From the NCBI GenBank assembly GCA_965221895.1, contig CBDCSX010000002.1:1595366-1659365 (forward strand): a stretch of DNA of 64,000 bases, given 5' to 3'. This DNA comes from Dehalococcoidia bacterium (lineage in GTDB: Bacteria > Chloroflexota > Dehalococcoidia > Lucifugimonadales > GCA-2712585). The notes beneath the pieces were generated by a model, which was given only the letters and a program-made list of their open reading frames with translations, made no database searches and was not told where the DNA came from. A program made the position numbers and the translations under genes. Positions 7,022 through 63,263 of the stretch are shown piece by piece (position 1 is the stretch's first letter; each line of letters starts with the position of its first letter).

Positions 7022-7560
7022 ATCACCCTTCCAACTCCTTCATTGTTTATCTGCGGCTTACGCGGCGTCATAGGTACGAATCCGTGTGTGGGTATGCCGC
7101 TTCCAGGCACGGGACCCCAACCCTCGTTGCAGGTTGGCAGCAGAGGTCCCGCAACCCATTGGAAACACGCTAAAAATATAGCAGAAAGAGCGTCGCACTT
7201 CAATTTCTTTGGGCGCAGGGTCTATGATACATGGTGTCTCGGAAGGCGGACGGGTGGCAACAGGACAAGGCAGTCTATTGTGAGGGAATCGACGTTATGC
7301 CGTCGCAGCCTGCCGTTTGCAGACGGTTAGGCCTGGCACGGAACCAGCAAACGCGTCGATTGCAGCAGAGGGCCTCAAACCAGCGCGTATTACGCAACTC
7401 TTAATAGAGGCGAGGCTTATTAAGTTTTGGGCCTCAATTCTTAATAAGGGGATCAGGTTGAGCTTGCAGGCTAATGGGCCGCTTCTCATTTGCCAGCTTT
7501 GACACCTTCTGGGGCCGATGGTATATTTCCCTCCGTCCTTCGAACCGCGGCCCGCAGGAG

Positions 7561-8367
7561 TTGGCGTTGCCCCTGAATATCTTCGTACTGGCCAAGCAGG
7601 TCATCGACCCGGAGATGCCCCGTTCCGCCTTCCAGGTGGACCGGGAGAATCGCCGCGTCGTCAGCCCTTCCACCCTGCCGCCGGTGGTGAACGGCTTCGA
7701 CGAAAACGCCGTTGAAGCGGCTCTTCGCATCAAAGACTCCCAAACCGCCGTAATAACCGTCATCTCAATGGGCCAGAACTTCGCCCTGGACGTGATGAAG
7801 AAACCCCTCTCCATGGGCGCCGACAGCCTCGTACTTCTCCAAGACGACGCTTTCGCCAACACGGTGGACAGCTTCGTCGTGGCCCGTATTCTGACGGCGG
7901 CGATAAAGAAGCTCGGCCCCTTCGACCTCATCATCGCAGGACGACAGGCTTCCGACTGGGACAACGCCCAAGTTCCCCTGGCGGTGGCGGAACTGCTGAA
8001 CCTTCCCAGCGTCACCATAGGCAAGAAGGTGGAGGTGGGCGACGGTCGGGTGACTGTGGAGCGCCAGATGCCGGAGGGTACGGAGATTGTAGAGGCCCCC
8101 ATGCCCGCCCTGGTAACGGTGAGCAACGAGTTGGGCCAGCCCCGCTACCCCACCCTGAGGGGCATAATGGCTGCCACTCGCAAGCAGCCCGTTGTCTGGT
8201 CTCTCGGGGATTTGGGATTAGACGCAGGTCAGCTTTCGCCCCAGGTAGAAACGGTTGACCTGTACGTGCCTGTAACGGAAGCCGATTGCGAGTTCATAGA
8301 AGGGGAGGACGCCGCAGACGCGGGCCGGCTGCTGGCCCTCAAGCTCAGGGAGGCCAAGCTCGTCTAA
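7561..8367 (+). CDS. etfB: Electron transfer flavoprotein beta subunit. A TTG start at 7561 was chosen; the longer ORF from 7474 is not protein-like.
   Basis: 'NIFVLAKQVIDPE' N-terminus typical of EtfB/FixA, followed directly by etfA. Confidence 0.75.
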   Translation: MALPLNIFVLAKQVIDPEMPRSAFQVDRENRRVVSPSTLPPVVNGFDENAVEAALRIKDSQTAVITVISMGQNFALDVMKKPLSMGADSLVLLQDDAFANTVDSFVVARILTAAIKKLGPFDLIIAGRQASDWDNAQVPLAVAELLNLPSVTIGKKVEVGDGRVTVERQMPEGTEIVEAPMPALVTVSNELGQPRYPTLRGIMAATRKQPVVWSLGDLGLDAGQLSPQVETVDLYVPVTEADCEFIEGEDAADAGRLLALKLREAKLV

Positions 8368-8385
8368 TGGACAATCGCGAGTTGA

Positions 8386-9387
8386 ATGGTTATGTCTGAA
8401 TCTGCAGGCGTTCTGGTTCTCGCCGAAATGGATGGCGGCTCCCTTTCGTCCACGGCGGCGGAACTTCTTGCCGCGGGACGCGAGGTGTCGGAAGGGCTGG
8501 GCTTGTCCCTTTCCCTTGCCGTGTCGGGAAGCGACGTCGGGCCGGCAGCGCAGGAAGCCGCAACTCTCGGGGCGCATCGTGTTTACGCTGTGGAGGACGA
8601 GCTTCTGACCGGCTACCCCCCGGAGCTTGTCCTGGAGACGTGGTCACAGATATGCAGACAGACCAATCCTACTGTAGTCTTGATCGCCAGGACCACGGCA
8701 GGCCGGGATCTTGCGCCGCGGCTGGCGGTCCGGCTGGGCGTGGGGTTGGCCCAAGACTGCCTGGAAGTCACCGTCGACGAAGCGTCGGGGCGAATGATTG
8801 CTCACCGTCCCGTCTACGGCGGCAATGCCATGGCCGCCGTGGTGTGCAACGGAACGCCCCATATGGCGTGCATCCGTCCTAAGGCATACGAACCTTTGGA
8901 ACCGGATGATTCTCGGACGGCGGAGGTTATTCCTCTCAGCGTTTCCCTGGATGACTCTATGGCGAGGGTGAAGCTGGTGGAGCGGGTTGCGGAGGAGTCG
9001 GAGGGGGTGCAGCTGGAATCGGCCAAGATAGTCGTCGCCGGAGGGCGGGGGCTGGGGTCGCCAGCGCCCTTCAAAGACCTGGAGGTCATCGCCGGATTGC
9101 TGGGGGCTGGCGTCGGCGCGTCGCGGGCCGCGGTGGATGCGGGTTGGGTGCCTCCCTCGTGGCAGATAGGGTTGACGGGCAAGACCATTACGGCTGACCT
9201 GTACATAACGGTAGCCATCAGCGGGGCCAGCCAGCACATGGCGGGCTGCTCCGGCTCGAAGGTGATAGTAGCGGTGAACAAGGACGCGGAGGCCAACATC
9301 TTCAAGGAGGCCCGCTACGGAGTGGTGGGCGACTGGCAGAAGGTGCTGCCGAGCTTTACGGAGACGCTGCGGGAGCTTCTGGCTTAA
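8386..9387 (+). CDS. etfA: Electron transfer flavoprotein alpha subunit
   Basis: EtfA/FixB domain order and the C-terminal FAD-binding region 'ITVAISGASQHMAG'. Confidence 0.8.
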   Translation: MVMSESAGVLVLAEMDGGSLSSTAAELLAAGREVSEGLGLSLSLAVSGSDVGPAAQEAATLGAHRVYAVEDELLTGYPPELVLETWSQICRQTNPTVVLIARTTAGRDLAPRLAVRLGVGLAQDCLEVTVDEASGRMIAHRPVYGGNAMAAVVCNGTPHMACIRPKAYEPLEPDDSRTAEVIPLSVSLDDSMARVKLVERVAEESEGVQLESAKIVVAGGRGLGSPAPFKDLEVIAGLLGAGVGASRAAVDAGWVPPSWQIGLTGKTITADLYITVAISGASQHMAGCSGSKVIVAVNKDAEANIFKEARYGVVGDWQKVLPSFTETLRELLA

Positions 9388-9466
9388 ACGGGGGACGGTC
9401 GCCGCGTGGGTGGTGGTGAGGTGGCGCGTAGGTGAAAGGGCTTACCTTGTCCTAGAGAAGTTGTTG

Positions 9467-9742
9467 TTACGTCCTTGGTGCCGAAGTAGCGGCCAGTTTG
9501 CGACGAGCCTGGGCGAGATCATAGTGGGCTTGAAAGCGCATCCAGAAGTCGGCATCACTCCATCCGATGCGCTCCAATGCAAGTGCCACCGACGTCGAGA
9601 CGCCGCAACGACCATTTAGCAGGCGAGAAGCTGTGTTGCGACTAACTCCGAGGCGAGCAGCGAATTCGTTGACGCTCCAACCCATCTCCTCCACACTATC
9701 CCGAAGGCTTTCTCCGGGATGACTCGGATTATCTCGGCTCAT
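9467..9742 (-). CDS. higA: HigA-family antitoxin (XRE HTH)
   Basis: 'WSVNEFAARLGVSRNTASRLLNGR' HTH_XRE motif. ATGA overlap with the upstream higB. Confidence 0.75.
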   Translation of the reverse strand: MSRDNPSHPGESLRDSVEEMGWSVNEFAARLGVSRNTASRLLNGRCGVSTSVALALERIGWSDADFWMRFQAHYDLAQARRKLAATSAPRT

Positions 9743-10026
9743 AGTCTTACCTCCCAGTGATAATCTTCCAGGTTAATGCCCACGGCTTCACCGTGCACGA
9801 ACCGGAAGGTAATCCGCCAATTTCCACTCACTCGGACACTCCAAACATCCTTGCGATTGCCCTTTAATTGATGAAGGCGGTTGGCGGGCTGATCCATCTG
9901 GCTAGGGCGAACGGCGAAGAATAACTGGTCAAGGATTCGGCCAATTCTTCGCACATGGGCAGGATTGAGGCGGCGGGCGTCTCCTCGCTCCCAAAACCGC
10001 CGCAACCCCGAGTGCCTGAATTCCAC
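9739..10026 (-). CDS. higB: HigB toxin (RelE/ParE superfamily). The toxin-first gene order is typical of higBA.
   Basis: 'LKGNRKDVWSVRVSGNWRITFRF...EDYH' matches the HigB plasmid-killer family. Confidence 0.7.
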   Translation of the reverse strand: MEFRHSGLRRFWERGDARRLNPAHVRRIGRILDQLFFAVRPSQMDQPANRLHQLKGNRKDVWSVRVSGNWRITFRFVHGEAVGINLEDYHWEVRL

Positions 10027-10084
10027 GGACCTATAGTACCGTATGGCGGTACATGCTGCAAATTGTCAGCGGGCTGAGTGCGGT

Positions 10085-10930
10085 CTAACGAACGCCGCCG
10101 AGGACCACGTTGTCTATGAGACGAACGGAGCCTATCCACGCCGCTGTGGAGACCATGGCGCCTGCCGTGGCCGACTCCAACTCCTGCATCGAGTTGGAGT
10201 CGGCGATGCTGACGTAGTCGATACTTTGCACCAGCGGTTCGGCCTCCAAGATGGTGCGTGCACGTCGCTTCAGTTCGGCGGCGCGGGTTTCTCCGGCCAG
10301 CCATAGTTTCTCAGCCTGTCGCAAGGCGCGGTATAGCACTACGGCGGCGCGGCGCTCCGACGGGTCGAGGCGGCTGTTGCGGCTGCTGTAGGCCAACCCG
10401 TCGTCCTCCCGCACCGTTGGCGACACCACTATCTCCACGGGCAAATTGAGGTCTCTCACCATCGCCTTGACCACGGCGGCCTGCTGTCCGTCCTTCTGCC
10501 CGAAATAGGCGCGGGTGGGCGACGTGACGTTGAACAGTTTGGCTACAACCGTCGCGACGCCCTGAAAGTGCCCAGGGCGATGAGCGCCCTCCAATCGACG
10601 GGAAACCGCGCCAACCTCCACCCATGTGTCCATACACGGTGGGTACAACTCCGACGTCTCCGGGGCGAAGACTAAGTCCACCTTCTCATCCTTCAGGATG
10701 GCCAGGTCCCGGGCCAGATCCATAGGGTAGGCGCTGAGGTCTTCCTCTGGGCCGAATTGGGTGGGATTAACGAAGATGCTGACCACCACCGAGGCGTTCT
10801 CGCGCCGGGCCCTTTGCACCAGCGATAGATGTCCGGGGTGCAGGTAGCCCATGGTGGGCACAAGACCCACTGGGCGGGGTAGGCTCCTGCAGGCTTGGGC
10901 CATGTCCGAAACGGATCCGATGACGCGCAA
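10085..10930 (-). CDS. panC: Pantoate--beta-alanine ligase
   Basis: 'VPTMGYLHPGHLSLV' HIGH-class motif and length. Confidence 0.85.
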   Translation of the reverse strand: MRVIGSVSDMAQACRSLPRPVGLVPTMGYLHPGHLSLVQRARRENASVVVSIFVNPTQFGPEEDLSAYPMDLARDLAILKDEKVDLVFAPETSELYPPCMDTWVEVGAVSRRLEGAHRPGHFQGVATVVAKLFNVTSPTRAYFGQKDGQQAAVVKAMVRDLNLPVEIVVSPTVREDDGLAYSSRNSRLDPSERRAAVVLYRALRQAEKLWLAGETRAAELKRRARTILEAEPLVQSIDYVSIADSNSMQELESATAGAMVSTAAWIGSVRLIDNVVLGGVR

Positions 10931-10935
10931 CGATT

Positions 10936-11772
10936 TCAGTCTTCCAGGAGGTCTTGAAGCAGCGCCTCGTCCATGTCGAAGCTCTCCTTTGAGGTGGGAA
11001 AGACGCCGTCCCTCACCTCCTGGGCGTACCGTTCAAGGGCGGCGGCGATGGTCTCGGAAAGGTTGAGATACTGCCGGGTGTGCTTGGGGACAAAATCGTC
11101 GTAGAGGCCTAGAATGTCGTGGATGACCTGCACCTGGCCGTCGCAGTGCGGCCCGGCGCCGATGCCGATAGTCGGGATGGAGAGTTTCTGGGTGATGATG
11201 CGGGCCAAGGGCGCGGGCACAAGCTCCAGCACCAGGGAATAGGCTCCGGCTCCTTCCAATGCCCGTGCATCTTCGAGCAGCCGGACAGCCTCTCGCCTGG
11301 CCTTACCCTGAACCCGATACCCACCGAATTGGTGCACCGATTGGGGAGTGAGGCCCAGATGTCCCATGACGGGGATGCCCGCTTCGACTATTCGGCGCAC
11401 CTTCTCCACCGTGGGGCCGGCGCCCTCCAGCTTCACCGACTGCGCGCCTCCTTCCTGCACCAGCCTTCCGGCGTTCCTTACGGCATCCTCCATGCTTGTC
11501 TGGAAGCTCATGAAAGGCATATCCGTCACCACCAGCGGACGCTGCGCTCCCCTGACCACGGCCCTCGTATGCCGCACCATGTCTTCCATGGTCACCGGTA
11601 TGGTGGAGTCATAACCCAGGCAGACCATCCCCAGGCTATCGCCCACAAGGACGATAGGGAAGCCCGCCCGGTCCGCCAACCGGGCGAAGGTGTAGTCGTA
11701 AGCGGTGACTACGGGTATTCGCTGGCCCTTGGCCTTCATGAACCGTATGCGTCGGGCCGTCATTCTAGCCAT
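10936..11772 (-). CDS. panB: 3-methyl-2-oxobutanoate hydroxymethyltransferase. The start was trimmed to MARMTARR.
   Basis: 'VVTAYDYTFARLADRAGFPIVLVGDSLGMV' is the PanB signature. Confidence 0.85.
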   Translation of the reverse strand: MARMTARRIRFMKAKGQRIPVVTAYDYTFARLADRAGFPIVLVGDSLGMVCLGYDSTIPVTMEDMVRHTRAVVRGAQRPLVVTDMPFMSFQTSMEDAVRNAGRLVQEGGAQSVKLEGAGPTVEKVRRIVEAGIPVMGHLGLTPQSVHQFGGYRVQGKARREAVRLLEDARALEGAGAYSLVLELVPAPLARIITQKLSIPTIGIGAGPHCDGQVQVIHDILGLYDDFVPKHTRQYLNLSETIAAALERYAQEVRDGVFPTSKESFDMDEALLQDLLED

Positions 11773-12988
11773 GGGACCGGCCTCCATCGTTGTGCTTACG
11801 GCTAGATGCGGAAAGTTCATTCATCGGTTGAAGATCGTTGGCTTCGACAGGCGCCCACAGGCAGACAGCTTCTTCAAATTGGGTAAGCAGGCATTCTAAT
11901 TCACGCAGCTTCTTCTGGTCGAGGGCGGACGTCAGGGGGATTGATGCTCTTGTCAGTTCAATGTATAACGGAAGAACCTCGGGCGCACGGGCTTGTAAGG
12001 CCGCCAGATGTCGGCGCAGGGTGGCTACGTCTCCCCTCACTACGGGGCCGGTGATGGCCGCTTCGGGGCCGAGGGCTGCCGCGTTCTCGAGGGTGGTTCG
12101 AGCAAGAGGGATAATGGCTCGGAGAGCCGTTTCCTGGTCGACGCCCATCGCCTTCCAGAGGGCGACGGCGGAGCGGAGCAGAGCGACAAGGGCGCCGCAG
12201 CTCATGACCGCGGAGGCGTGATACAGGGGGCGGTCAGCCGGTTCAATTTCGATGGTCCGGCCACCCAGGTCTGACGCCATAGCGTCTAGAGTTTCCCGAA
12301 GCCAGCCACTTCCCTCCACGGCGAAGGTCACGCCTTCCAATCGGGCTTGTGCCACGGCAGCGGCGTCTTCGTCCGTCGGCAAGGAGGTGAATGTCTGAAG
12401 GGGATGGAAGGAGCCGCAAAGAGCGCCCGCAGTTGCGGCAGGGCTGAGAAGCTCCGACGTGCCCGCGCCGCTGCAGTGCGCCACACCCCGGCCTGCAGGC
12501 CAGTTTAGGGACGATGCCACCTGAGTGATTACGTCGTCAGGGACCGTCAAGAAGACGATGCGGCAGCGGTCCACTATCGCTTGGGGTTCAGTCTCCGCGC
12601 TGCATCCGGGAATCAGGCGGGCGAGACGAAGGGCCGAAGCGTAGGAGCGGCTGGCCACAGCCCCGACATTCCAACCAGCCGCGGATAGGGCCAGTGCCAA
12701 GGTAGTCCCCAGGGCGCCGGCGCCAATGAAACCGACAGCGGGGCGGTCATCCGAGCGACGCGTCAACGGGGTAGCGGCAGCTTCTTCGGGCGCAGCTTTG
12801 CTTACGGTTGCGCGGAAAGGCGTGGGATACGTGTGGGATTTCCCGTTGGCATCAGGGCGGACGGCAGGTTCGGCATCCGCAGACGAAGCAAACGGAGCGA
12901 TAGTTATAGAAGGGGAAAGTATTTCCAGCGTTGCCGTCTCGGTCCTCATGGGATCCCAGCGGCCTCCTGAACTCGTCGGAAGGCTCAC
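11765..12988 (-). CDS. Rossmann-fold/DUF2520 family oxidoreductase, a putative PanG-type ketopantoate reductase. The N-terminal ~90 residues of the ORF are probably not translated.
   Basis: 'VGFIGAGALGTTL' dinucleotide fold and a C-terminal DUF2520-like 'AITGPVVRGD' region. It overlaps the panB start by 8 bp, which is an operon-type arrangement. Confidence 0.55.
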   Translation of the reverse strand: MSLPTSSGGRWDPMRTETATLEILSPSITIAPFASSADAEPAVRPDANGKSHTYPTPFRATVSKAAPEEAAATPLTRRSDDRPAVGFIGAGALGTTLALALSAAGWNVGAVASRSYASALRLARLIPGCSAETEPQAIVDRCRIVFLTVPDDVITQVASSLNWPAGRGVAHCSGAGTSELLSPAATAGALCGSFHPLQTFTSLPTDEDAAAVAQARLEGVTFAVEGSGWLRETLDAMASDLGGRTIEIEPADRPLYHASAVMSCGALVALLRSAVALWKAMGVDQETALRAIIPLARTTLENAAALGPEAAITGPVVRGDVATLRRHLAALQARAPEVLPLYIELTRASIPLTSALDQKKLRELECLLTQFEEAVCLWAPVEANDLQPMNELSASSRKHNDGGRSHG

Positions 12989-13139
12989 CCCCCGAACGGG
13001 TGGATGGCGCGGTTATGATACCACCGCGGCGGTAAGCCTTCAACGTGGGGGTTCTCGACGGGGGCGACGAGGCCTTGGCCCAAATTGCGCTCCGAACGAG
13101 TACAGTTTCTTACTAATGTGTGAGCAATACAATAGGCTA

Positions 13140-13240
13140 TTTGTGTCACACGGCGGGGTTGCAGTTCTGAACTCCTATTTCGGGAGTGGGCCTCCGTGCC
13201 CTTTGAGTTCAGAACCGGATATGGCTGCTGTGTGACAACG
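13140..13240. promoter_or_regulatory. Nested inverted repeats upstream of the protease lipoprotein gene
   Basis: Outer arms 'tgtgtcacac'/'gtgtgacaac' and inner arms 'gttctgaactc'/'gagttcagaac' form a long imperfect hairpin. Confidence 0.25.
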
Positions 13241-13272
13241 TCGCCCAATCCCACAACAAGGGGGTTCCTGCT

Positions 13273-14822
13273 TTGTTACGGCTCGCTGGCGTACTATTTA
13301 TAGTAACCCTTTGTACCGTAGCCTGCATCACCGTAAACGCACCACCCCAAACCACGCAACCCACTCCGATGTATACACTAATGCCGACACCTGCGCTGGC
13401 AACCGCACCCACTGCCAGGACAACCCCCACTCCGACGGCTACGTCCACACCAACAGCGGCACCCACTGCGAGACCGACACCCTCACCGTCTGCTATCGCA
13501 CCATCGACGCCAACTCTCATTCCCGCACCTGCACTTGTTCACAACGTGGAAGATCTAGTGGCTCGGGTGAAACCGGCCGTCGTCAGGTTGAGCCAGGGAA
13601 GAAGCACGGGTTCGGCGTGTTCTATGAAATTGAAGGTATTCAACAAACACCGTATATTCTCACTAACTATCACGTGGTAGACGGGGCTACACAGGTTGAT
13701 GTGCTTTTGGAGAGTGGACAGACCTACATCGGAGAAGCAATCTGGACGGATTCACAGAGGGACTTGGCTATAGTGGACGTTACTTGCTGCTTGGTCCCCA
13801 CCGCGCGTCCACTAAGTATACCCTTGGCTGTTGATGCGCCGCGGGATGGAGCGGAGGTCATTGCCATGGGTTTTCCACTAGGATTCTATAGTGTTAGGAC
13901 TACGAGGGGCATTGTGGCTTCTAGTTGGTACGATACACAGTCCGATAGCTGGTGGATTCAATCCGATGCTGCTACCAATCCAGGCAACAGTGGAGGGCCT
14001 CTACTTAATGTAGACGGGGAAATTGTGGGCATCAGTACATCCAGGGAAGAAAGCAGCGCGTCGGGTCGGCCCGTGGAAGGAATCAACTACGCGGTCTCAA
14101 CCGTTACCATTCAAGAGGTTATTCCAAGCCACTCAGAGCTAAACGCAAAGCCCTCATCGGTTCCGACTCCAGTAGCGCGCGCAACTCCAAGGCCAACCCC
14201 TGCGCCTACACCAAAGCCAACAGAAACTCCAACTCCGGCACCAACAATAATTCCCACTCCAAGTCCAACGGCAATTCCTACCCCTGAAACACCTCCTCAT
14301 TCCTGTAGCTTGGCAGGAATAACACCGGCTTACACGATGCTGGACAATTATTCATACTTCGTTTCCGCTCACTTCATGGATATCAACCCGGCGGTGAAGC
14401 CGACACTTCTTAATTTGTTCCCGGAAGTAGCGGGGGCGTACATTGTTGAATTCATCGATGATCCCTTGAAATACGCTTCCTTCCGCGACTTTCTCCAACG
14501 GGTTAATTTTGTAACTGCCGCGGAGGCCAATCTTGAGGATGGCCTCCAAGCAATGCAGGATCGAGGCTTGTTGCCCAGCGCAGACGAGTCGCTGCAGGAA
14601 TACAATCAACGACTAGCCTTGGACCCATGTGCACTTGCCCGGATCTCCATTTTCCGGGACGATGACATTATGACAATACTTGCTGTTGGCGTTGCCAGGG
14701 AAGTTAGTACGGGCGTCGCGCAACGTTACGCGGTGGACGGTATGATAGATAGCATCAACGCTTACAGATGGGAAGATCCAACCACGCCGCTAATATACTT
14801 CGTTCTGCGATATATCGAGTAG
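13273..14822 (+). pseudogene. Lipoprotein S1-family (trypsin-like) serine protease with a Pro/Thr linker and a C-terminal domain, interrupted by a 1-nt frameshift near 13612
   Basis: Frame 1 gives the signal peptide with lipobox, a PT linker and 'VKPAVVRLSQGRSTGS'. Frame 0 continues 'GVFYEIEG..TNYHVVDG...NPGNSGGPL'. Adding one G at 'ggttcg(g)gcg' restores 'GSGVFYEIEG', which aligns with the paralog at 59753-62330. Confidence 0.6.
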
Positions 14823-14870
14823 TTGAAGAATCCCTGAGATTCTGCGGATTATCGCCATCGAGAAAGTCAG

Positions 14871-15332
14871 TTGTGGATCATACGGGCCAATGTCGCAAAA
14901 ATCGGTGAGAGATTAGGAATAGTAGAGATGAACACAGGAGAATTCGAATCTAGAGACAGACTGAAGTATGTAGATGCAATGTGGGATGAGACTCCACCAG
15001 CTTCGCCATCCGCTATTAGGCTATACGTGGACTGTGTAGCAGAGGCTGTTTCAAAATACGATAGAGTTTCGCCCGAAACCCGAACTATAGAGTTGTTCCT
15101 TAAGGCTTTTGCAAGATGTCTAGAATCTAGAACCGCGTCTCTTGGAAAAGTTCTGGATAGAAGAGATGTGGAAGATTGTAACCATTTGATTCGTGCAACC
15201 GGGGCTATGGTATTGGTTTACCGGCATAGAGATTTTTATGAGGCTGGAAGTCCGTTTCTAGATTGTGCGTTACCTAAACTGATGCCGGGAAAGGGTCCAT
15301 GCCCATATCATCAGCCAAAGAACCAAGAATAA
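14871..15332 (+). CDS. Hypothetical protein in a lower-GC islet
   Basis: Open reading frame with no recognisable motifs. Confidence 0.35.
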   Translation: MWIIRANVAKIGERLGIVEMNTGEFESRDRLKYVDAMWDETPPASPSAIRLYVDCVAEAVSKYDRVSPETRTIELFLKAFARCLESRTASLGKVLDRRDVEDCNHLIRATGAMVLVYRHRDFYEAGSPFLDCALPKLMPGKGPCPYHQPKNQE

Positions 15333-15502
15333 GCGTGTATCTAACAACGTGATTGTCCCCCTCGTTTGACCACCCATCCCCCTTGCCCTATTCTGGCCTT
15401 GAATGCTGCCCGGATTAATAACCCCACGGAGCAGGCCGTGGAGGTGTTCCTGGTGGGCACCCAAATTCTTGGGAGCGGCGGGAGACTGCCCACTTCATGT
15501 TC

Positions 15503-15531
15503 TTGACAGTGGTTTGATAGCTTCCTATAAT
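15503..15531 (+). promoter_or_regulatory. Near-consensus sigma70-type promoter TTGACA-17 nt-TATAAT upstream of the DUF1800/DUF1501 pair
   Basis: Read directly: ttgaca(15503-15508), a 17-nt spacer, then tataat(15526-15531), ~85 bp upstream of the start at 15616. Confidence 0.55.
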
Positions 15532-15615
15532 TGCGTCACCTCTATTTGACCTCGGCGAAAGCTGCGGGCTGTTAGGGGCGCATGTAGTTTGTAGATTATA
15601 GAAAGGAGTGGCTTA

Positions 15616-17031
15616 ATGGCAAATAAGGACATCGCATTGATGGCCCACCTGATGCGCCGCGCCGGTTTCGGAGCCACCTACGACGAGCTTGAAGCAAGAG
15701 CCGCCAAGGGCTACGAAGCCACCGTGGAAGAGCTGGTGGACCCCGACGCCCACGGTGTGTCGGAGTACGACGAGTTGACTTTGGCTCGGTACTTCCCAGA
15801 CATGGAAGTTCCTTCCGCTCCCGCCATGGGCACCGCCAACTTCATGTACCACCTGTACACAACCCCTCGTCCCCTGGTGGAAAAGATGACCCTCTTCTGG
15901 CACATGGTCTTCGCCACCGGCAACTCCAAGGTGGACAACCCACCGGAGATGCTCCAGCAGATTGAGATGTTCCGCCAGCACGGAATGGGGGACTACAAGG
16001 AACTGCTGGTTCGCGTTTCCAAAGACCCCTCCATGATATTCTGGCTGGACAACAACGAGAACCACAAGCGCGCCCCCAACGAGAACTGGGGCCGCGAGCT
16101 CTTGGAGCTTTTCTCCATGGGGCAGGGCAACTATTCCGAAGACGACGTCAAGATGGCTGCCCGGGCCTTCACCGGCTGGACCATCCTTCCCAAGATTCCG
16201 CGCACTCCCTATCAGCGCCACCACTGGAAATTCATCTACAAGGCGGAGGACCACGACCATAGTGAAAAGACCTTCCTGGGCCACACCGGCCGCTTCAACG
16301 GGGAGGACATCATAGACCTCATCGTGCAGCAGCCGGCCACCGCCAATTTCATGGCCCGTCATCTGTACAACTTCTTCGTCGCCGACGAAGTCCAGGTACC
16401 CAGCTGGCTCGACGTGCCCCCCAAGGACCCCGAGGCCGTTCAAGCCATCGCAAAAACTTTTATCGATTCCGACTACGACATTAGGACTACCCTGCGCTTC
16501 ATCTTCAAGTCCGACTTCTTCAAGGACGAGAGCGTATGGTTCGCCAAGGTGAAGAACCCCGCCGAGGTGGTAGCAGGCACGATTCGCCTGGTCGGAGACT
16601 TTCAGGAACCCCGCCCCGGAGTGCTTAACATCGGACTAGAAGGCACCTACCAGGGGCAGGACCTGATCAATCCCCCCAGCGTCGAGGGCTGGCATACGGG
16701 TCAGGAGTGGATAGACACCGGCTCCCTGGTTCGCCGCGTCAACTTCGTCGCCGACAGCTTCAGCAACACTGACATGCCCGGCGTCAAGTTCATCATCAAC
16801 CGGCTGGGCGCCAGCGATACCCTCACCCCCGAGGAGCTCGTGGACGGCTGCCTGGAACTCTTGGGCGCCGTTCAGATAAACGACGAGACCCGCGAACAGC
16901 TCCTCACCCACGTCCGGGCCGACGGCGACATTAGCCGCGGCTCCACGGAGGAAGAGACCAGGACTTTCGGCAAGAGAGTAACGGAAGTACTGCAACTAAT
17001 AGCCGCAACCAGGGAGTACCAGTTCGGCTAG
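15616..17031 (+). CDS. DUF1800 family protein
   Basis: N-terminal 'HLMRRAGFGATYDEL' and overall DUF1800 length, paired with DUF1501 downstream. Confidence 0.75.
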   Translation: MANKDIALMAHLMRRAGFGATYDELEARAAKGYEATVEELVDPDAHGVSEYDELTLARYFPDMEVPSAPAMGTANFMYHLYTTPRPLVEKMTLFWHMVFATGNSKVDNPPEMLQQIEMFRQHGMGDYKELLVRVSKDPSMIFWLDNNENHKRAPNENWGRELLELFSMGQGNYSEDDVKMAARAFTGWTILPKIPRTPYQRHHWKFIYKAEDHDHSEKTFLGHTGRFNGEDIIDLIVQQPATANFMARHLYNFFVADEVQVPSWLDVPPKDPEAVQAIAKTFIDSDYDIRTTLRFIFKSDFFKDESVWFAKVKNPAEVVAGTIRLVGDFQEPRPGVLNIGLEGTYQGQDLINPPSVEGWHTGQEWIDTGSLVRRVNFVADSFSNTDMPGVKFIINRLGASDTLTPEELVDGCLELLGAVQINDETREQLLTHVRADGDISRGSTEEETRTFGKRVTEVLQLIAATREYQFG

Positions 17032-17083
17032 GCGATTGGAAAGCTTAAGATGAACCTTAACCCCAATGAAAGGAGCAAACGTC

Positions 17084-18208
17084 ATGGCTAAAGATCCAGT
17101 CTTGGTAATTTTTCAGCTAACCGGAGGTAACGATTACCTCAACACCATTGTCCCCCGACAGGAACCCCTTTACAGGGACTACCGTAAGATGGTGGTCATC
17201 CCGGAGGGTGACGAGATACCCATCGACGACAACTATGGCTTCCACCCGGAGATGGCCCCGATAAAGCAGTTCTGGGATGAGGGCAAGATGGCTCTCATTC
17301 ACGGAATCGGATACGACAACTCCCCCAGGTCCCACTTCCGCTCAATGGACATCTGGCACACCTGCGAGCCGGACAAGGTAGGCACTGAGGGTTGGGTGGG
17401 TCGCTCCATCCAAGCCGTAGACCCCAACAAGGAGAACGTCCTCACGGGCGTGAACTTTGGCCAGGGTCTTCCGCGGGCCATGGCCCTTCCCGGCGTACCC
17501 GTAGCGTCCGTTTCCGACATCGAGAACTACGGCGTGCTCACGGGCATCACGGACCAGGACCAGCGCATGCGCGCCCTGGACCGCTTCCAGCGGATCTACT
17601 CGCCCGCTATCGGCCGCGGCCCCGTCATGGACTATCTGGGACAGACGGGTCTGGACGCCCTCAAGGGCGCCGACATTCTGAAGACCGCGCCGGAACAGTA
17701 CAGTTCCTCCGTGGAATACGCCGCGACCCCCATCGCTCAGAAGCTCCGTGGCATCTCCATGGTGCACCAGGCAAACCTGGGGACCCGTTTCTTCTACACC
17801 CAGCACGCCAGCTTCGACACCCACGCCAGCCAGATGCCCGGCCACCATCAGCTCTGGAAGGACTGCTCCGCGGCAATCTCGGACTTCTTCGCCGACCTGC
17901 GCGAGCACGACGCCGCTGACAACGTTGTTCTCATCATGTTCAGCGAGTTCGGTCGCCGCGTCCGAGACAACGGCTCCGGCACCGACCACGGCGCCGGCGG
18001 AGTCGCCTTCGCAATCGGCGATCCCGTCGTGGGCGGTCACTTCTCCGAGTACCCCTCGATGAACGAGGCGGACCTACAGGAGGGCGACCTGGCCCCCAAC
18101 TACGACTTCCGTGGCTTCTACTCCAGCCTGCTGGAACAGTACATGGGTCTTGACCCGACGGAAATCGTCGGCGGCACCTTCGAGCAGCTCGACTTTATCG
18201 CAAAGTAA
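17084..18208 (+). CDS. DUF1501 family protein (sulfatase-like fold)
   Basis: 'VLVIFQLTGGNDYLNTIVP' is a DUF1501 N-terminus. The ATG at 17084 has an AAAGGAG RBS. Confidence 0.75.
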   Translation: MAKDPVLVIFQLTGGNDYLNTIVPRQEPLYRDYRKMVVIPEGDEIPIDDNYGFHPEMAPIKQFWDEGKMALIHGIGYDNSPRSHFRSMDIWHTCEPDKVGTEGWVGRSIQAVDPNKENVLTGVNFGQGLPRAMALPGVPVASVSDIENYGVLTGITDQDQRMRALDRFQRIYSPAIGRGPVMDYLGQTGLDALKGADILKTAPEQYSSSVEYAATPIAQKLRGISMVHQANLGTRFFYTQHASFDTHASQMPGHHQLWKDCSAAISDFFADLREHDAADNVVLIMFSEFGRRVRDNGSGTDHGAGGVAFAIGDPVVGGHFSEYPSMNEADLQEGDLAPNYDFRGFYSSLLEQYMGLDPTEIVGGTFEQLDFIAK

Positions 18209-18252
18209 GCTCTCTTTGCCAAGGGACCCCTTAGGTATCCGGTAACAAACGA

Positions 18253-18300
18253 CGGGCCACCCCGCCATGGGGTGGCCCGTCGCCATTTTTCATGAAATCC
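18253..18300 (+). terminator. Rho-independent terminator
   Basis: 13-bp perfect stem 'gacgggccacccc'/'ggggtggcccgtc' followed by a T-run 'ccatttttcatg'. Confidence 0.7.
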
Positions 18301-18316
18301 ACTTGAGGGAGCAAAC

Positions 18317-19321
18317 ATGCCAATAACGCAAATAGCCACCGGCCGGGCCTTCAGCTACATGGACAACATCGGTCAAATCGGCACCTCCGGCCCCAGCCTC
18401 CGCCATCCCGTGGGGCTAGCTCGCGGCGCCAACGACGTTCTATACGTGGCCAACTGGGGCACGGAATCCCAAGGCGGCGCCAGAATCACCAAGTGCGTCA
18501 TGTCAACCCAGGAGTGGCTGGCGGACATCGGACAGCACGGCTCCGGGGACGGGGAGTTCATCTGGCCCGGGGGTCTCGTCGCAGACTCTGACGAGAACCT
18601 TTATCTAACGGACCAGGCGGACAGCAAGGTTGTCATCTTCGACAAGGAGGGCGGGTTCATCGCCAAGTGGGGGGAGGAAGGCTCCGGGGAGGGCCAGATG
18701 TTTAGGCCCAGCGGCATAGCCTTAGGCTCCCAGGGGAACCTGCTCATCTCCGATACTCGCAACCACCGCATCCAGAAGTTCACCAAGGACGGACAGTTCC
18801 TGGGGTCCTTCGGCTCATACGGCTCCGGCGAGGGCGAGTTCGACCTGCCCTGGGGTCTGGACGTGGACGCCGACGACAACGTCTACGTTGCCGATTGGGG
18901 CAACAACCGTGTCCAGAAGCTCTCGGCGTCAGGGGAGCACCTTCAGACGTTCGGCGAATCCAGCGACCAGGTGCAGCTAAACCACCCCAGCGACGTTTCC
19001 GTGGACAAGGACGGGGACGTGTTCGTAGCCGATTGGGCCAACAACCGGGCGATAGTCTACCAGCCCGACGGCACGTTCCTGGTCACGCTGATTGGGGACG
19101 CCACCAACCTTTCCGAGTGGGCCAAGTCGAAGGTCGCTGCCAACCCGGACCTGGCCAAGGCCAGAATGCGGGCCGACCTTGAGCCAGAATGGCGCCTCTG
19201 GCATCCCGCCGCCATTCTGGTGGACGACGACTACAACATCCTCATCGCCGAGGCCCAACACATGAGGGTGCAGATCTATCAGAAGGACCCCGACTATTTT
19301 GAAGCACAGTTTACGCTGTAG
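18317..19321 (+). CDS. NHL-repeat beta-propeller protein
   Basis: Repeated 'xxGxGxGEGxFxxPxGIAxDxxGNxYVADxxNNRVQKF' blocks. Confidence 0.75.
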   Translation: MPITQIATGRAFSYMDNIGQIGTSGPSLRHPVGLARGANDVLYVANWGTESQGGARITKCVMSTQEWLADIGQHGSGDGEFIWPGGLVADSDENLYLTDQADSKVVIFDKEGGFIAKWGEEGSGEGQMFRPSGIALGSQGNLLISDTRNHRIQKFTKDGQFLGSFGSYGSGEGEFDLPWGLDVDADDNVYVADWGNNRVQKLSASGEHLQTFGESSDQVQLNHPSDVSVDKDGDVFVADWANNRAIVYQPDGTFLVTLIGDATNLSEWAKSKVAANPDLAKARMRADLEPEWRLWHPAAILVDDDYNILIAEAQHMRVQIYQKDPDYFEAQFTL

Positions 19322-19344
19322 GCGAACACAAACTGCAAGAAACG

Positions 19345-19385
19345 AAGAAGGGGCGGTCGGGTGGGCCGCCCCTTCTTTGCTTTAG
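19345..19385. terminator. Bidirectional terminator hairpin between the NHL gene (+) and fic (-)
   Basis: 'gggcggtcgggtgggccgccc' stem-loop followed by CTTCTTTGCTTT. Confidence 0.55.
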
Positions 19386-19425
19386 CTTCTCAAGAATCAG
19401 ATCGGGGTGCCATGTCATCCTCCGC

Positions 19426-20637
19426 TTACGATATCTGATACTTGCCAATGGCGTTGAAATCTATCTGTACCCAAGCCTCTGCCCGCTTTTCAAAGACAAC
19501 CTTGATGAATCCCAATTCTCCCAATCTATTGAGTTCTCTTATGATGGTTCGGACAGTCACTTCTCGATAGGCGGCTCTCACGAAGGCAGATTCCAACGCC
19601 TCGTGTAGAGCGACTTTACGGGACGGACTCTCATCAAACGGGTCTTCCGGCTCCGTCTCATCCAAGAGAAATTGCAACAGTTGAACTTCCCTATCGTTCA
19701 ACAAACGACGTCGAGGGCTGACCTTTCTGTTGTGACTGGCCACCAGCATTTGCCTATACATTACCCTGTTTAGCTTGGTCTTGACGAAGTTGTTTATGCC
19801 CATAAGTTCTTCCAAGAACCCCTCTACACCAAACTGTATGAAGGCAGTCACGTTCATCTTGGGCGCCGTACGTCTGGCCTCATTCAGGCGAACCCTATAC
19901 CTGTCCGCGTTCCTGTAAAAGAAGTTGGACAACCCATAGAATCCGTGCACGTTGTACCCGTGTTGGAACAGTATTCCGGCCTCCAGTAGCCTGGAAACCC
20001 TGCCGTTGCCGTCACCAAAAGGATGAATGGTCACTAAGAAAAAGTGCGCCAGCAGGGCTTGAATAACCGGCATCTCAGATGGCAATCTTCCGGAGTTCAG
20101 GAAGGACACGAATTCTTCCATCATCCGGGGCAAGTCGTTGTGAGACGCGCCCCAATGAATCCCGCCGAGATCCGGTGCACCCACCCTAACGGGATTATTC
20201 CGCAGCGCGCCGGGCACGTTATCTTTCTCGTCCGAACCCTGGGTAAGCAGCCTATGCATCGTCAGGATGTCGCCCATGCTCACTGGCGACGAACCCGGGG
20301 CGAACCGGTCTTTGACCCAGTCCTGCCCTCTGGCAGCATTGGCTATCTGCGTTATCTCGCGTGACTTATCCGTTGGCGACACGGCCGCCTCCCGTTCGAT
20401 CCGCTCTATTTGCACCTGAACTTCGGTCTCCGACAGAGGGTTGCCTTCAATGGCCGTCGTCCCATGGACGGCCCGCACCTTATTCAACCTGTCCAGTTGC
20501 TTAACCCATTCTGGGGCTAGGACCAAGTGGCTCGCCGACTGTCTATGGGCCTCAATGCTAATCACCGTATTGAATAATGCGCTGCCCTCCAAGTAGTAAT
20601 CAAAGCCAAACCGTTCCCAGAAATTCTTCGAGTCCAA
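19426..20637 (-). CDS. Fic/DOC family protein (AMPylation-type) with a C-terminal winged-helix-like extension
   Basis: Fic motif 'HPFGDGNGRVSRLL'. The locus is lower in GC. Confidence 0.8.
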   Translation of the reverse strand: MDSKNFWERFGFDYYLEGSALFNTVISIEAHRQSASHLVLAPEWVKQLDRLNKVRAVHGTTAIEGNPLSETEVQVQIERIEREAAVSPTDKSREITQIANAARGQDWVKDRFAPGSSPVSMGDILTMHRLLTQGSDEKDNVPGALRNNPVRVGAPDLGGIHWGASHNDLPRMMEEFVSFLNSGRLPSEMPVIQALLAHFFLVTIHPFGDGNGRVSRLLEAGILFQHGYNVHGFYGLSNFFYRNADRYRVRLNEARRTAPKMNVTAFIQFGVEGFLEELMGINNFVKTKLNRVMYRQMLVASHNRKVSPRRRLLNDREVQLLQFLLDETEPEDPFDESPSRKVALHEALESAFVRAAYREVTVRTIIRELNRLGELGFIKVVFEKRAEAWVQIDFNAIGKYQIS

Positions 20638-20649
20638 AGTACCACCCCC

Positions 20650-20812
20650 CCATTTGACAGCTTATTTGACACGCTATTTGGCACTGGACAAAGTGTCTTT
20701 CATAGCTGATTCATAGCTAAACCATACCATAATTCGGCATCACTAGTTATTTGACGTCACGTTATTTGACAGATTATTTGGCACGCTATTTGACACGTAT
20801 TCTTAGGCACAC
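20650..20812. promoter_or_regulatory. Iteron-like array of 8 copies of TATTTGRCAC at ~11-13-bp spacing, in clusters of 3 and 5, between the divergent fic and aminotransferase genes
   Basis: Read directly: atttgacagc / ttatttgacacgc / tatttggcactgg ... ttatttgacgtcacg / ttatttgacagat / tatttggcacgc / tatttgacacg / tattcttaggcacac. Confidence 0.5.
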
Positions 20813-59752: not shown

Positions 59753-62330
59753 TCAGGGCGCCCAGACGGTGAAATTCCGGAAGTCTACGTCGCGGTTGCT
59801 GGTGCTGTAGAAGCCGGCGATGGCGGAAATACCGCCGGCTTCAAGGTTGAAGTCGAGAATCAAGGTAGCCTCAAGAGTCCCGTTGACAAAGAACCAGCCT
59901 GTATCTCCCATAGAAATGAGCAACAGTTGGTTTTGGCTTCCCGGGCCGTCACGCCAGTTTGAGAGGCGACCCGAACTCAATCCGGTATACTCATCGTCCC
60001 CAACGCTACGTGTGTGGTGCTCCCATTGACCACTATTGTGAACTGATATTGCTTCAAGATGGCCGGAGAAAGGCCTACGGAAGATAAACCCGTAGTCCCA
60101 TTTTCCTGATTGAGGATTGATAAACTCAACCTCTGTCACAAAATCGCGGGAGTGCAAACCACTTCTGTGGGTTCCGACGATCCCTTCGCCGTATTCAATA
60201 GTTTCGCTTGTTGGGCCGTACCGACGGCTCAGGTCGTAGCCCCGGAAGTTCTCGTATTTGGTCGAGGCTCCCGCTTTTTCGCTGCCGGCGTAGGCACCTG
60301 TCATGATTGCCACGTCTCCACTGACCGTCACGTCACTCAGATCAAAGGAGGCGATGAAGGTTTGGTTAACGAAGAGCCATCCCTCTTCTTCTAACGCCAC
60401 CACCATTATCTGATTCTGCTGCCCTCCCCGTAACTTCAAGTTGGAAACAACACCGGCGGCCACCTGATTGTACGGAGCGTCATTACCGGACTGCACAGAC
60501 CATCTCCCTCTACTGCTGATAATCACCTGCAAGAAGGAGGGATCATCTTCGAAAAGGTCGTATCTCAGGAAGAAGCCGTAGCTCCAGGGGTGTTCGGAAG
60601 CGTCGTACGGATTGGTGAAGGTGGCCTCCACCATTAGGTCGTCAAGGGAGACATCGGCGTATTCGGTCTGGATGAAATTGTCCTCGGGGTTGTGTTGCAG
60701 ATCCCCATCGAGCGGGCCGAAGTCGTAATCGGCACTGGGGGTTGGGGTGAATCCAGGCGTGGGAGTTGGGCGAGGTGTTGGCGTTGGGGTGGGTGAAGGC
60801 CGGGCGGTCTTGAGGGTGTGCAGTTGTTCCTGGATGGTGGGGGCGGCGATGGCGAAGCCGACGTTATCTACCGGCCGTCCGCTTTGAGTTTCTTCCTGGC
60901 GGAAGGTGTTGATGCCTAGAATCTGGCCGGTTTCGGAAAGCATCGGGCCGCCGCTGTTACCCGGATTGATGGCCGCATCCGTCTGGATAACGAGGCTCTG
61001 ATGACTTTCGTCGTAGCGAATGGCGGAAACGATGCCCTTGGTGACCGTTGCCTCCCCTGGAAGCCCTAGAGGATAGCCCATGGCAAAGACATCATCACCC
61101 GGATTGAGTTCGGAAACGTTTCCAAAGGAGAGGGCCCGGAAGTCGCCGCAGCAGACACGGAGGACGGCCAAGTCCCGGACCGCATCCGTGCCGAGAATTT
61201 CGGCGCTGTAGGTAGAGGAGTCGTTAACCTCCACCTGGGTATCGCTTTCGTCCTCGATGACATGAGTAGTTGGTGAGAACGAGGGCTGCATCGTCGTCGA
61301 CCTCAAAAATCACGCCGGAACCGGAGCCTTTGTCGGTGCGAATTCTGACGACTGAAGGGCGCACGTCCTCAATCATGGCGCTGATGGTCGGCGTTGGTTC
61401 GGGCGTGGGGGTCGGCGCAGGAGTGGGGACGGGCGTCGGGGTGGGAGTTGGCGTTGGCTCAGGGGTGGGAATTGGGGTTGGTACAGGCGTGGGCTGAGGT
61501 GTTGGTACAGGCGTAGGCTCCGGAGTGGGCGCTGGCGTTGGGGTGGGAATGGGCGTTGGGGTTGCCGTTGGAGCCATGGTCGGCGTGAGCGTGGGAGTGG
61601 GGATTGGGGTGGGAATGGGAGTAGGGATGGCCGTGGGAGCCACGGTCGGCGTGGGCGTGGGGATTGGCGTGGGTTCAGCCGTGGGCGTGGGGGTGAGGAG
61701 GGCGACGACAATGGGAGGCTCGGTGACGCCGGGGTAGTCGAGGCTCAGATACCGACGTTCGTCGGAAGTTGAGCCGGGGGCGACGTAAATCAGGACAAGG
61801 TCGTCCTCGTCTACCGGCACTTGGAAGCAGACCTTGCCTTCGAGTTGGCTACCTTTTGGAATTTCGCCTTCAAGCCGGTCGGGTATGGAACCGCAGGAGT
61901 GTATTACCGGGTTGTAGTCGCTGCGGCTGCTGCCCACCAGATGAAAGTGGGTATGGCTGACGTTGACGGTGTCGGCGCCGGTTAGGTTAAAGATGCGAAG
62001 AGCAACCATGTAGTACCGATAGCCGGGGGGAGGCGAGGGATTGTCGGGGAAGTTTTGGAGGAGAAATGGTTGCGCGTCTTGCATGACGCCGACGACCTGC
62101 ACTTGCAGCCCGTTGGAGCCAACGAGTACGTCTCCGGCAGGGTAGGGGTTGTCGAGGGTGAAGCCTGGTGGGGCGGGGGTAACGATTGGAGTTGGGGCAG
62201 GCGTAGGTTCAGGCGTGGGAGTTGCGATTGGAGGCGGCGCGGGGGTTGGGGTGCTTCCGCCGCCGCAGGCGACTGCGACGAGGGCGGCGAGCAGCAGGCA
62301 GGGAAGGAATAGAATTTTCAATAGGCGCAT
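59753..62330 (-). pseudogene. Lipoprotein S1-family serine protease paralog: DUF4352-like N-domain, PT linker, protease domain, PT linker, and 2 copies of the domain shared with the 838-aa protein. It is interrupted by a frameshift (1 extra nt) near 61270.
   Basis: ORF 61224..62330 ends '...[19 protein letters not shown]|SCHRGRK'. ORF 59753..61306 continues '|HVIEDESD...GNSGGPM'. Removing one nt at 'aactac(t)catgtc' restores TNYHVI. Confidence 0.6.
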
Positions 62331-63193: not shown

Positions 63194-63263
63194 TATTCAT
63201 CCTCCTCTGGGTACCCATTGAGGCGCTGGTTTAGTATTTCAAAGGGCGACATCCGAATAGCGC

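What the first reader, a model, noticed from the sequence alone, without database searches (positions are those of the whole stretch)
13273..14822. Two paralogous lipoprotein S1 proteases are both frameshifted, at different codons
Paralog 1 (13273-14822) needs a +1 nt correction at ~13612, where a G is missing in 'ggttcg(g)gcg', to read through ...GSGVFYEIEG... Paralog 2 (59753-62330) needs a -1 nt correction at ~61270, where 'tact' has an extra t, to read ...LVLTNYHVIEDE... Both lesions fall in the first ~40 residues of the protease domain, upstream of the catalytic His, but they are not at homologous positions and are not in long homopolymers. No other gene in the window shows a comparable lesion, so random sequencing error is a weaker explanation than true inactivation, or possibly regulated frameshifting, of this protease family.
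Basis: seen in the sequence. Interest (0 to 1): 0.55.

Follow-up and report, generated by a model that had tools for sequence, protein, structure and literature searches.

The report
Two protease genes broken by single-base indels
Two related secreted-protease genes in this Dehalococcoidia-like genome are each broken by one single-base indel that intact relatives lack, so these are ordinary young pseudogenes or assembly errors, not programmed frameshifting.

Summary
Paralog 1 (13273-14822, +) lacks one base between 13613 and 13614. Relatives read TC(G/A)GGC there; the window reads TCGGC. Paralog 2 (62330-59753, -) carries an extra T at 61265, directly before the catalytic His codon. After a one-base repair, each protein matches Pfam Trypsin_2 end to end and keeps the His/Asp/Ser triad. 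I checked about 44 kb of other coding sequence in the window and found no other frameshift.

Syntenic orthologs from related metagenome contigs are intact at both sites, so neither frameshift is conserved. There is no slippery heptamer and no conserved downstream RNA structure. Programmed frameshifting is not supported.

Two ordinary explanations remain, and only the reads can separate them.
- **Recent loss-of-function mutations, about 0.48.** These fast-evolving accessory genes also carry unrelated lesions in relatives: a TAG stop in L005 and multiple indels in L006 and L002.
- **Consensus errors at the most strain-variable loci of a long-read metagenome assembly, about 0.42.** The paralog 1 lesion is a minus-one change in a short G run, which is the commonest indel type between two near-identical relatives' assemblies. 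dN/dS shows no relaxation of constraint.

Interest is low.

The parts
13273..13613 (+). Paralog 1, 5' segment (frame 1). It has a TTG start, a hydrophobic N-terminus ending ...CTVAC (putative lipobox), a Pro/Thr-rich linker, and the first strand of the protease domain (…VHNVEDLVARVKPAVVRLSQGRSTGS).
   Evidence: Aligns to residues 1-142 of the intact ortholog P0122 in frame 1.
13614..13615 (+). Paralog 1 lesion. The window has GG where orthologs have GGG (L003, L004, L006) or AGG (L005). One base is missing between 13613 and 13614, so a -1 reading-frame change is needed to continue.
13614..14822 (+). Paralog 1, 3' segment (frame 0). It contains the rest of the HtrA-type catalytic domain (His 13671-13673, Asp 13761-13763, Ser 13989-13991), a second Pro/Thr linker, a C-terminal domain of about 170 aa of unknown function, and the stop at 14820-14822.
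   Evidence: 87% identical to P0122 residues 126-537 with no further stop or frameshift.
61266..62330 (-). Paralog 2, 5' segment. It has an ATG start, an N-terminus ...LVAVAC (putative lipobox), a DUF4352 domain, a long Pro/Thr linker, and the first strands of the protease domain up to ...LVLTNY.
   Evidence: 92% identical to L007 residues 1-212.
61265..61265 (-). Paralog 2 lesion. An extra T lies between the Tyr codon (61268-61266) and the catalytic His codon. A +1 reading-frame change is needed to continue. A C>T substitution lies at 61262.
59753..61264 (-). Paralog 2, 3' segment. It begins with the catalytic His (61264-61262), followed by Asp (61174-61172) and Ser (60955-60953), a Pro/Thr linker, a C-terminal region of about 350 aa with no Pfam match, and the stop at 59755-59753.
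   Evidence: 78% identical to L007 residues 354-856 in one frame with no stops.

Best explanation
Both genes encode secreted proteases, probably lipid-anchored, with an HtrA/DegP-type catalytic domain and no PDZ domain. The host resembles a Dehalococcoidia MAG. Each gene was knocked out recently by an ordinary single-base mutation. In paralog 1, one base is lost in the Ser-Gly codons of GSG|V. In paralog 2, one T is inserted directly before the catalytic His codon. Translation then ends 22 codons (paralog 1) or 14 codons (paralog 2) later. What remains is a signal peptide, linker and, in paralog 2, the DUF4352 domain, with no active protease. The downstream ORFs have no signal peptide and lack the first protease strands. 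There is no recoding.

Shown: the lesions, their absence from orthologs, the intact triads, and the lack of frameshift signals. Inferred: that the lesions exist in the cells rather than only in the consensus, and that the genes are dispensable accessory genes with frequent turnover.
For: - A single one-base repair restores a full-length protein with an end-to-end Trypsin_2 match and an intact His/Asp/Ser triad in both genes.
- The lesions are private to the window. Syntenic orthologs are intact at these sites.
- About 44 kb of other coding sequence in the window carries no lesion, against 2 lesions in 4.1 kb of protease genes.
- The paralog 2 lesion is not in a homopolymer and comes with an adjacent substitution.
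- Orthologs in other assemblies carry unrelated disruptions while most neighbouring genes are intact. L005 has TAT>TAG two codons after the window's paralog 1 lesion. L006 has at least 6 indels. L002, at 22x coverage, has linker frameshifts and several frame-disrupting indels with 5 in-frame stops in its last 700 nt. L008 has a linker frameshift.
- The genes evolve faster than their neighbours. Amino-acid identity is 79-87%, against 94-99% for most neighbours. For paralog 2, dS is 0.62-0.69 against about 0.23 for its flanks. This pattern is typical of accessory surface genes.
Against: - There is no sign of relaxed constraint. Omega is 0.20-0.37 for pairs that include the window, similar to pairs of intact genes (0.18-0.19). 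Each gene has only one lesion and no decay.
- The paralog 1 lesion is G3 to G2. Between two near-identical relatives' assemblies, 5 of 7 indels are plus-or-minus-one changes in short homopolymers.
- Relatives' contigs also have frameshifts in housekeeping-type neighbours: DUF2520 in L004 and L005, and Lactamase_B_2 and Fic in L006. Their protease lesions may therefore also be noise.
- Long-read metagenome assemblers collapse similar strains into a consensus and leave a few indels per 100 kb (PMC13087279). That is the same order as 2 per 64 kb.
- No reads were available.
Confidence: 0.48

Rival explanations
1. Consensus or assembly artefact. The genes are intact in the cells. The indels arose when a long-read metagenome assembler built one consensus from co-occurring strains whose protease alleles differ strongly. 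Effective coverage and consensus accuracy would then drop exactly at these hypervariable loci.
For: - The window's ORF P0121 comes from a single 2.85-Mb contig held by NCBI and ENA.
- The closest named relative is a MAG of Dehalococcoidia.
- The related contigs have names of the form ctgN_coverage-x_l and coverages of 3-22x. I recall this as the metaMDBG naming style, but I did not check that.
- metaMDBG collapses similar strains, and residual indels truncate predicted proteins (PMC13087279).
- Indels between L003 and L004 (99.4% identical) are mostly plus-or-minus-one in homopolymers of 1-5 bases and hit other genes. The paralog 1 lesion is of this type.
- The missing base lies at a position that varies among relatives (TCG or TCA).
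- L002 and L008, which are 95% identical, co-occur in one sample, and both carry lesions in this gene.
- There is no relaxation of dN/dS, and each gene has just one lesion.
Against: - The rest of the window is clean over about 44 kb of checked coding sequence.
- The paralog 2 insertion is not a homopolymer error.
- The L005 lesion is a substitution to a stop codon, which is not an indel-type error.
- L002 carries many lesions at 22x coverage while its 14 kb of flanks are clean.
- The sequencing platform and coverage of the window's own contig are unknown.
Confidence: 0.42
2. Programmed ribosomal frameshifting: a -1 shift in paralog 1 and a +1 shift in paralog 2 regulate how much full-length protease is produced.
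For: - Both lesions lie early in the protease domain, and the downstream frames are fully open with intact triads.
- A P-site slip on G_GGU in paralog 1 would give ...TGFGVFYE..., a protein of normal length (my inference).
- The fold downstream of the paralog 2 site has z=-2.2.
Against: - The frameshift requirement is not conserved in any ortholog.
- There is no X XXY YYZ heptamer in any frame within 13540-13680.
- At AAC UAC UCA there is no +1 re-pairing codon, no A-site stop and no upstream Shine-Dalgarno-like element (my reading).
- The paralog 1 downstream fold has z=+0.27.
- The paralog 2 hairpin is also found in L002, which has no frameshift, and is absent from L007 and L001.
- The two sites would need opposite shift directions and share no sequence.
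Confidence: 0.02
3. Functional gene fission. The lesions are real, but the pieces are still used. For example, the N-terminal DUF4352 lipoprotein of paralog 2 could act alone, or the downstream protease ORF could be re-initiated.
For: - The L008 ortholog is split in its linker into a 292-aa DUF4352 protein and a 538-aa protease ORF.
- I recall that stand-alone DUF4352 lipoproteins exist, but I did not check this.
Against: - The downstream ORFs lack a signal peptide and, in paralog 2, the first protease strands.
- The break points differ between genomes.
- No start codon or ribosome-binding site was examined or conserved at the break.
Confidence: 0.05

Closest known systems
HtrA/DegP/DegS/DegQ serine endopeptidases (MEROPS S1C; Pfam Trypsin_2 PF13365)
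   Same: The catalytic domain matches Trypsin_2 end to end. The best solved relatives are Deg1, HtrA, DegP-like, HhoA and DegS, with E of 1e-28 to 1e-20. The TNYHV, DLA and GNSGGP motifs are present.
   Different: No PDZ domain is present, and all NCBIfam HtrA/DegP models score far below their cut-offs. The architecture is instead signal/lipobox, then DUF4352 (paralog 2 only), then a Pro/Thr linker, the protease, a second Pro/Thr linker, and an unknown C-terminal domain. Here both copies are disrupted.
Programmed -1 frameshift sites (for example dnaX and IS3-family transposases) and the +1 site of prfB
   Same: A frame change of one base is needed to produce the full-length product.
   Different: There is no slippery heptamer, no stimulatory structure specific to the frameshifted copy, no A-site stop or Shine-Dalgarno-like element, and no conservation among orthologs.
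Young unitary pseudogenes, or frameshift truncations in long-read MAGs of the kind counted by the IDEEL test
   Same: A single indel splits an otherwise orthologous, full-length ORF. As PMC13087279 notes, such truncations cannot be separated from sequencing indels without reads.
   Different: Here both lesions hit paralogs of one family, and orthologs in several other assemblies carry independent lesions. That is more clustering than uniform noise predicts.

Membership tests
HtrA/DegP (S1C) proteases | Chymotrypsin-fold catalytic domain with a His-Asp-Ser triad | tested here: met
   After the one-base repair, both proteins match Trypsin_2 1-144/144. The triad codons were located. PDB relatives are HtrA/Deg proteases.
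HtrA/DegP (S1C) proteases | One or two C-terminal PDZ domains | tested here: not met
   There is no PDZ hit in Pfam. NCBIfam degP_htrA_DO scores 112-153 bits against a cut-off of 416 and matches only profile positions 56-227.
Programmed -1 ribosomal frameshift | Slippery heptamer X XXY YYZ at the shift site | tested here: not met
   No such heptamer exists in any frame within 13540-13680.
Programmed -1 ribosomal frameshift | Stimulatory downstream RNA structure | tested here: not met
   Window 13600-13720 folds with z=+0.27.
Programmed frameshift (either direction) | The frameshift requirement is conserved among orthologs | tested here: not met
   L003, L004, L006 and L009 (paralog 1) and L002, L007, L008 and L001 (paralog 2) read through in a single frame at both sites.
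Programmed +1 frameshift (prfB-like) | P-site codon that can re-pair at +1, a slow or stop A-site codon, and an upstream Shine-Dalgarno-like element | tested here: not met
   The sequence CTC ACC AAC TAC TCA TGT has none of these (read by eye). The downstream hairpin is not specific to the frameshifted copy.
Bacterial lipoprotein | Signal peptide ending in a lipobox with an invariant Cys | tested here: inconclusive
   The N-termini read MLRLAGVLFIVTLCTVAC|ITVN and [22 protein letters not shown]|GGG. Both look lipobox-like, but position -3 is not Leu and no predictor was run.
Pseudogene (real loss of function) | ORF disrupted relative to intact orthologs | tested here: met
Pseudogene (real loss of function) | Lesion present in the organism's DNA (read support) | not testable with these tools
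   No reads are available. The window's contig is not in the gene-position index and was not found in genome contigs.
Pseudogene (real loss of function) | Relaxed selective constraint or accumulation of further lesions | tested here: not met
   Omega is 0.20-0.37, similar to intact pairs. Each gene has a single lesion. This is compatible only with a very recent event.

The most novel reading that the evidence does not exclude
Surface HtrA-like protease genes of this Dehalococcoidia lineage are repeatedly and independently knocked out in different strains. Lesions occur in the window (two paralogs), L005, L006, L002 and L008. Three of them fall in the first roughly 20 codons of the catalytic domain. 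This would point to selection for loss, or to population-level on/off polymorphism, of an exposed protease. A possible driver is pressure from a host or from phages.
Probability: 0.2. Interest if true: 0.4.

Novelty: already known. Interest (0 to 1): 0.15.

Why it matters
If the lesions are real, they show ordinary gene turnover in a fast-evolving accessory protease family of an uncultured Dehalococcoidia lineage. That is useful for annotation: both genes should be marked as pseudogenes. It also hints that these exposed proteases are dispensable or counter-selected. If the lesions are artefacts, they are a practical warning that consensus errors in long-read metagenome assemblies concentrate in strain-variable genes and can mimic family-specific inactivation. 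Neither outcome bears on an open question about recoding.

Tried and rejected
- **Apparently truncated homologs.** P0007, P0014, P0005 and P0006 start at GSGV|IFEV or at MIEDV, which looked like recurrent frameshifts at the same site. Translating L001 and L007 showed intact full-length ORFs. The gene caller had simply started late because spurious antisense ORFs are called in the Pro/Thr linker.
- **Source of the window.** P0121 equals window ORF 13311-14822 and comes from a 2,851,146-bp NCBI/ENA contig. The gene-position index does not hold it, the cluster gives no accession, and genome contigs does not hold it.
- **JGI metagenome scans.** The paralog 1 alignment found nothing. The paralog 2 alignment found only distant relatives, at 56% identity or less. 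No independent short-read copies of the orthologs were obtained.
- **Codon-usage Viterbi segmentation.** I tried it as a frameshift detector. It was too crude, and it scored paralog 1 as non-coding. I replaced it with homology checks.
- **Clustering of window-private substitutions around the lesions.** In paralog 1, three G>A changes lie at 13600, 13634 and 13645, against about 0.6 expected in that span. This is post hoc, with p of about 0.02. Paralog 2 shows no excess. I judged this too weak to use.
- **Literature.** A search for pseudogenes in sponge-associated Dehalococcoidia found nothing relevant.

Full report
**What is in the sequence**

The window is 58.8% G+C. On the + strand, an ORF in frame 1 (13273-13680) overlaps an ORF in frame 0 (13311-14822). 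On the - strand, ORF 62330-61224 overlaps ORF 61306-59753.

Reading the DNA and repairing one base in each gene gives continuous proteins of 516 and 858 aa. For paralog 1 the repair adds a base after 13613. For paralog 2 it removes the T at 61265.

Both repaired proteins match Pfam Trypsin_2 over the whole profile (1-144/144; E=2.5e-25 and 6.6e-30). Paralog 2 also has an N-terminal DUF4352 domain. The two protease domains are 42% identical over 189 aa. The nearest solved structures are HtrA-family proteases (Deg1, HtrA, DegP-like, HhoA, DegS). There is no PDZ domain, and all NCBIfam HtrA/DegP models score far below their cut-offs.

The catalytic codons are intact in both genes. In paralog 1 they are His 13671-13673, Asp 13761-13763 and Ser 13989-13991. 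In paralog 2 they are His 61264-61262, Asp 61174-61172 and Ser 60955-60953. The extra T of paralog 2 directly precedes its His codon.

**Are the lesions specific to these genes?**

I fetched syntenic loci from related metagenome contigs.
- L003 and L004 cover window 7388-21926 at 88-97% nucleotide identity.
- L005 and L006 cover the same locus.
- L002, L007 and L008 cover the paralog 2 locus; L002 aligns to window 62392-54416.

I compared the proteins of these loci with the window by tblastn. ETF alpha and beta, an HTH protein, PanC, PanB, DUF2520, DUF1800, DUF1501, an NHL protein, an aminotransferase, an Asp-protease-like protein, three MFS products and two hypothetical proteins are each full-length in a single frame in the window. 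Only the two proteases are split.

I also ran Pfam scans on 40 further stop-to-stop ORFs. Every ORF with a family hit covered the profile nearly end to end. Examples are the PFOR subunits, an SDR, the M1 and S15 peptidases, amidohydrolases, solute-binding proteins and MFS transporters. The one exception is a UGSC-family gene that is interrupted by a TGA. That TGA sits in the position of the family's U-G-S-C motif, so it is probably selenocysteine.

In total, about 44 kb of other coding sequence shows no frameshift, against two in 4.1 kb of protease genes.

**Comparison at the lesion sites**

At the paralog 1 site, L003, L004 and L006 read GGTTCGGGCGTG, L005 reads GGTTCAGGCGTG, and the window reads GGTTC-GGCGTG. 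At the paralog 2 site, L002 and L001 and L007 and L008 read AAC(T/C)AC-CACGT, whereas the window reads AACTACTCATGT.

Intact orthologs of paralog 1 are P0122 (537 aa, in L003 and L004), P0123 (516 aa, in L009) and P0124. L009 is titled 'MAG: Dehalococcoidia bacterium'. Intact relatives of paralog 2 are found in L007 and L001. The need for a frameshift is therefore private to the window's genome.

**Programmed frameshifting**

Paralog 1 would need a -1 shift and paralog 2 a +1 shift.
- No X XXY YYZ heptamer occurs in any frame in 13540-13680.
- The 120 nt downstream of the paralog 1 site fold no better than shuffled sequence (z=+0.27).
- The region downstream of the paralog 2 site folds somewhat better than shuffles (z=-2.2). 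The same hairpin is present in L002, which has no frameshift there (z=-1.8), and is absent from L007 and L001 (z>0).
- The sequence AAC UAC UCA offers no +1 re-pairing, no A-site stop and no upstream Shine-Dalgarno-like element (my reading).

Together with the intact orthologs, this rejects recoding. I put it at about 0.02.

**Real mutation or consensus error?**

The evidence splits between the two.

In favour of real, recent loss of function:
- The rest of the window is clean.
- The paralog 2 lesion is not in a homopolymer and is accompanied by a C>T change two bases downstream.
- The orthologs in other assemblies carry unrelated disruptions.
  - L005 has TAT>TAG in GSGVF*EIEG, two codons after the window's lesion.
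  - L006 has at least six frame-disrupting indels.
  - L008 has a frameshift in the linker.
  - L002, at 22x coverage, has linker frameshifts. Its last 700 nt carry several frame-disrupting indels and five in-frame stops, while its flanks are clean.
- The genes evolve fast. Amino-acid identity to orthologs is 79-87%, against 94-99% for most neighbours. For paralog 2, dS is 0.62-0.69 against about 0.23 in its flanks.
- The C-terminal domain of paralog 1 exists in two allelic types arranged as a mosaic among relatives. This fits an accessory, recombining surface gene.

In favour of an artefact:
- dN/dS for pairs that include the window (0.20-0.37) is no higher than for pairs of intact genes (0.18-0.19). 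Each gene has exactly one lesion.
- The paralog 1 lesion is a G3-to-G2 change.
- L003 and L004 are 99.4% identical, at 3x and 7.7x coverage. Five of the seven indels between them are plus-or-minus-one changes in homopolymers of 1-5 bases, and they fall in other genes (Fic, DUF2520).
- L005 and L006 also show frameshifts in DUF2520, Lactamase_B_2 and Fic. These assemblies therefore do contain frameshift noise.
- The relatives' contig names and coverages look like long-read metagenome assemblies.
- The nanoMDBG paper states that minimizer-space assembly collapses similar strains into consensus genomes. It also says indel errors truncate predicted proteins, and it reports about 4 indels per 100 kb on an ONT mock community (PMC13087279).
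- L002 and L008, which are 95% identical, co-occur in one sample. Consensus accuracy would be expected to be worst exactly at strain-variable loci such as these protease genes.

**Verdict**

The lesions are non-programmed single-base indels. I favour recent genuine inactivation (0.48) slightly over consensus error (0.42). Small weights go to functional fission (0.05) and recoding (0.02). Only read pileups can decide. Under either main reading the finding is ordinary, so interest is low.

The most novel reading still open is recurrent, possibly selected, knockout of exposed HtrA-like proteases across strains of this lineage. I put that at about 0.2.

Noticed in passing
window 58778-57426 (-), TGA at 58034-58032; L002 about 10275-10277; L007 about 9215-9217; L008 about 8338-8340: An MFS transporter is split into 244-aa and 197-aa ORFs by a single in-frame TGA (…FGYFV*GYTMSF…). 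The TGA is conserved in all four relatives. A hairpin starts right after it (GGCUACA..GAGC-loop-GCUC..GGCCUAC), and relatives differ in the 3' arm. This could be a selenocysteine-containing MFS transporter with a bacterial SECIS-like element.
   Followed up: partly
window 24112-23543 (-), TGA at 23797-23795: A UGSC-family (PF24696) gene has an in-frame TGA exactly at the U of the motif (…AVGD*GSCSAC…). It is probably a selenoprotein, which would imply that the organism uses selenocysteine. It is not a lesion.
   Followed up: partly
L005 1533-3185: The ortholog of paralog 1 has a TAT>TAG nonsense codon in GSGVF*EIEG. This is only two codons downstream of the window's frameshift. The contig has 7x coverage.
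   Followed up: partly
L002 7900-8560 and L006 7640-9290: The orthologs of paralog 2 (L002, 22x coverage) and paralog 1 (L006) each carry several frame-disrupting indels, while most flanking genes are intact. This is either real decay or a chimeric consensus of co-occurring strains.
   Followed up: partly
window 14300-14560 and the matching parts of L003, L005, L006 and L009: The C-terminal domain of paralog 1 exists in two sharply different allelic types (…LDNYSYFVSAHFMDINPAVKP… and …LEEWEQFVATQSIGITKLAEQ…). They are distributed as a mosaic among relatives, which suggests recombination within the gene.
   Followed up: no
window 13600, 13634, 13645: Three window-private G>A substitutions flank the missing base at 13614 within 46 nt. 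Elsewhere in the gene, private changes are sparse (about 0.6 expected in that span). This could be a small mutational cluster, an imported patch, or a local dip in consensus quality.
   Followed up: partly
window 61370-61740 and 13330-13530; L001 3400-4000: The Pro/Thr-rich linkers are open in several frames on both strands. Gene callers place spurious antisense ORFs there and start the protease genes late, as in P0007, P0005 and P0001. This mimics N-terminal truncation.
   Followed up: yes
window 19429-20661, 29699-30196, 33583-34041, 38499-38879, 43440-44351, 62474-63998: The window is rich in defence and toxin-antitoxin-type genes: Fic, HTH_17, a PIN domain, a BrnA antitoxin, AbiTii, and a predicted pPIWI-associated nuclease next to a 240-aa ORF with no Pfam hit.
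   Followed up: no
window 14871-15332 compared with L003 9706-10347: The gene downstream of paralog 1 shares only its first 98 residues with the 213-aa NYN-domain protein of L003 and L004. L005, L006 and L009 share the window's short form. This is an allelic replacement rather than a lesion.
   Followed up: partly
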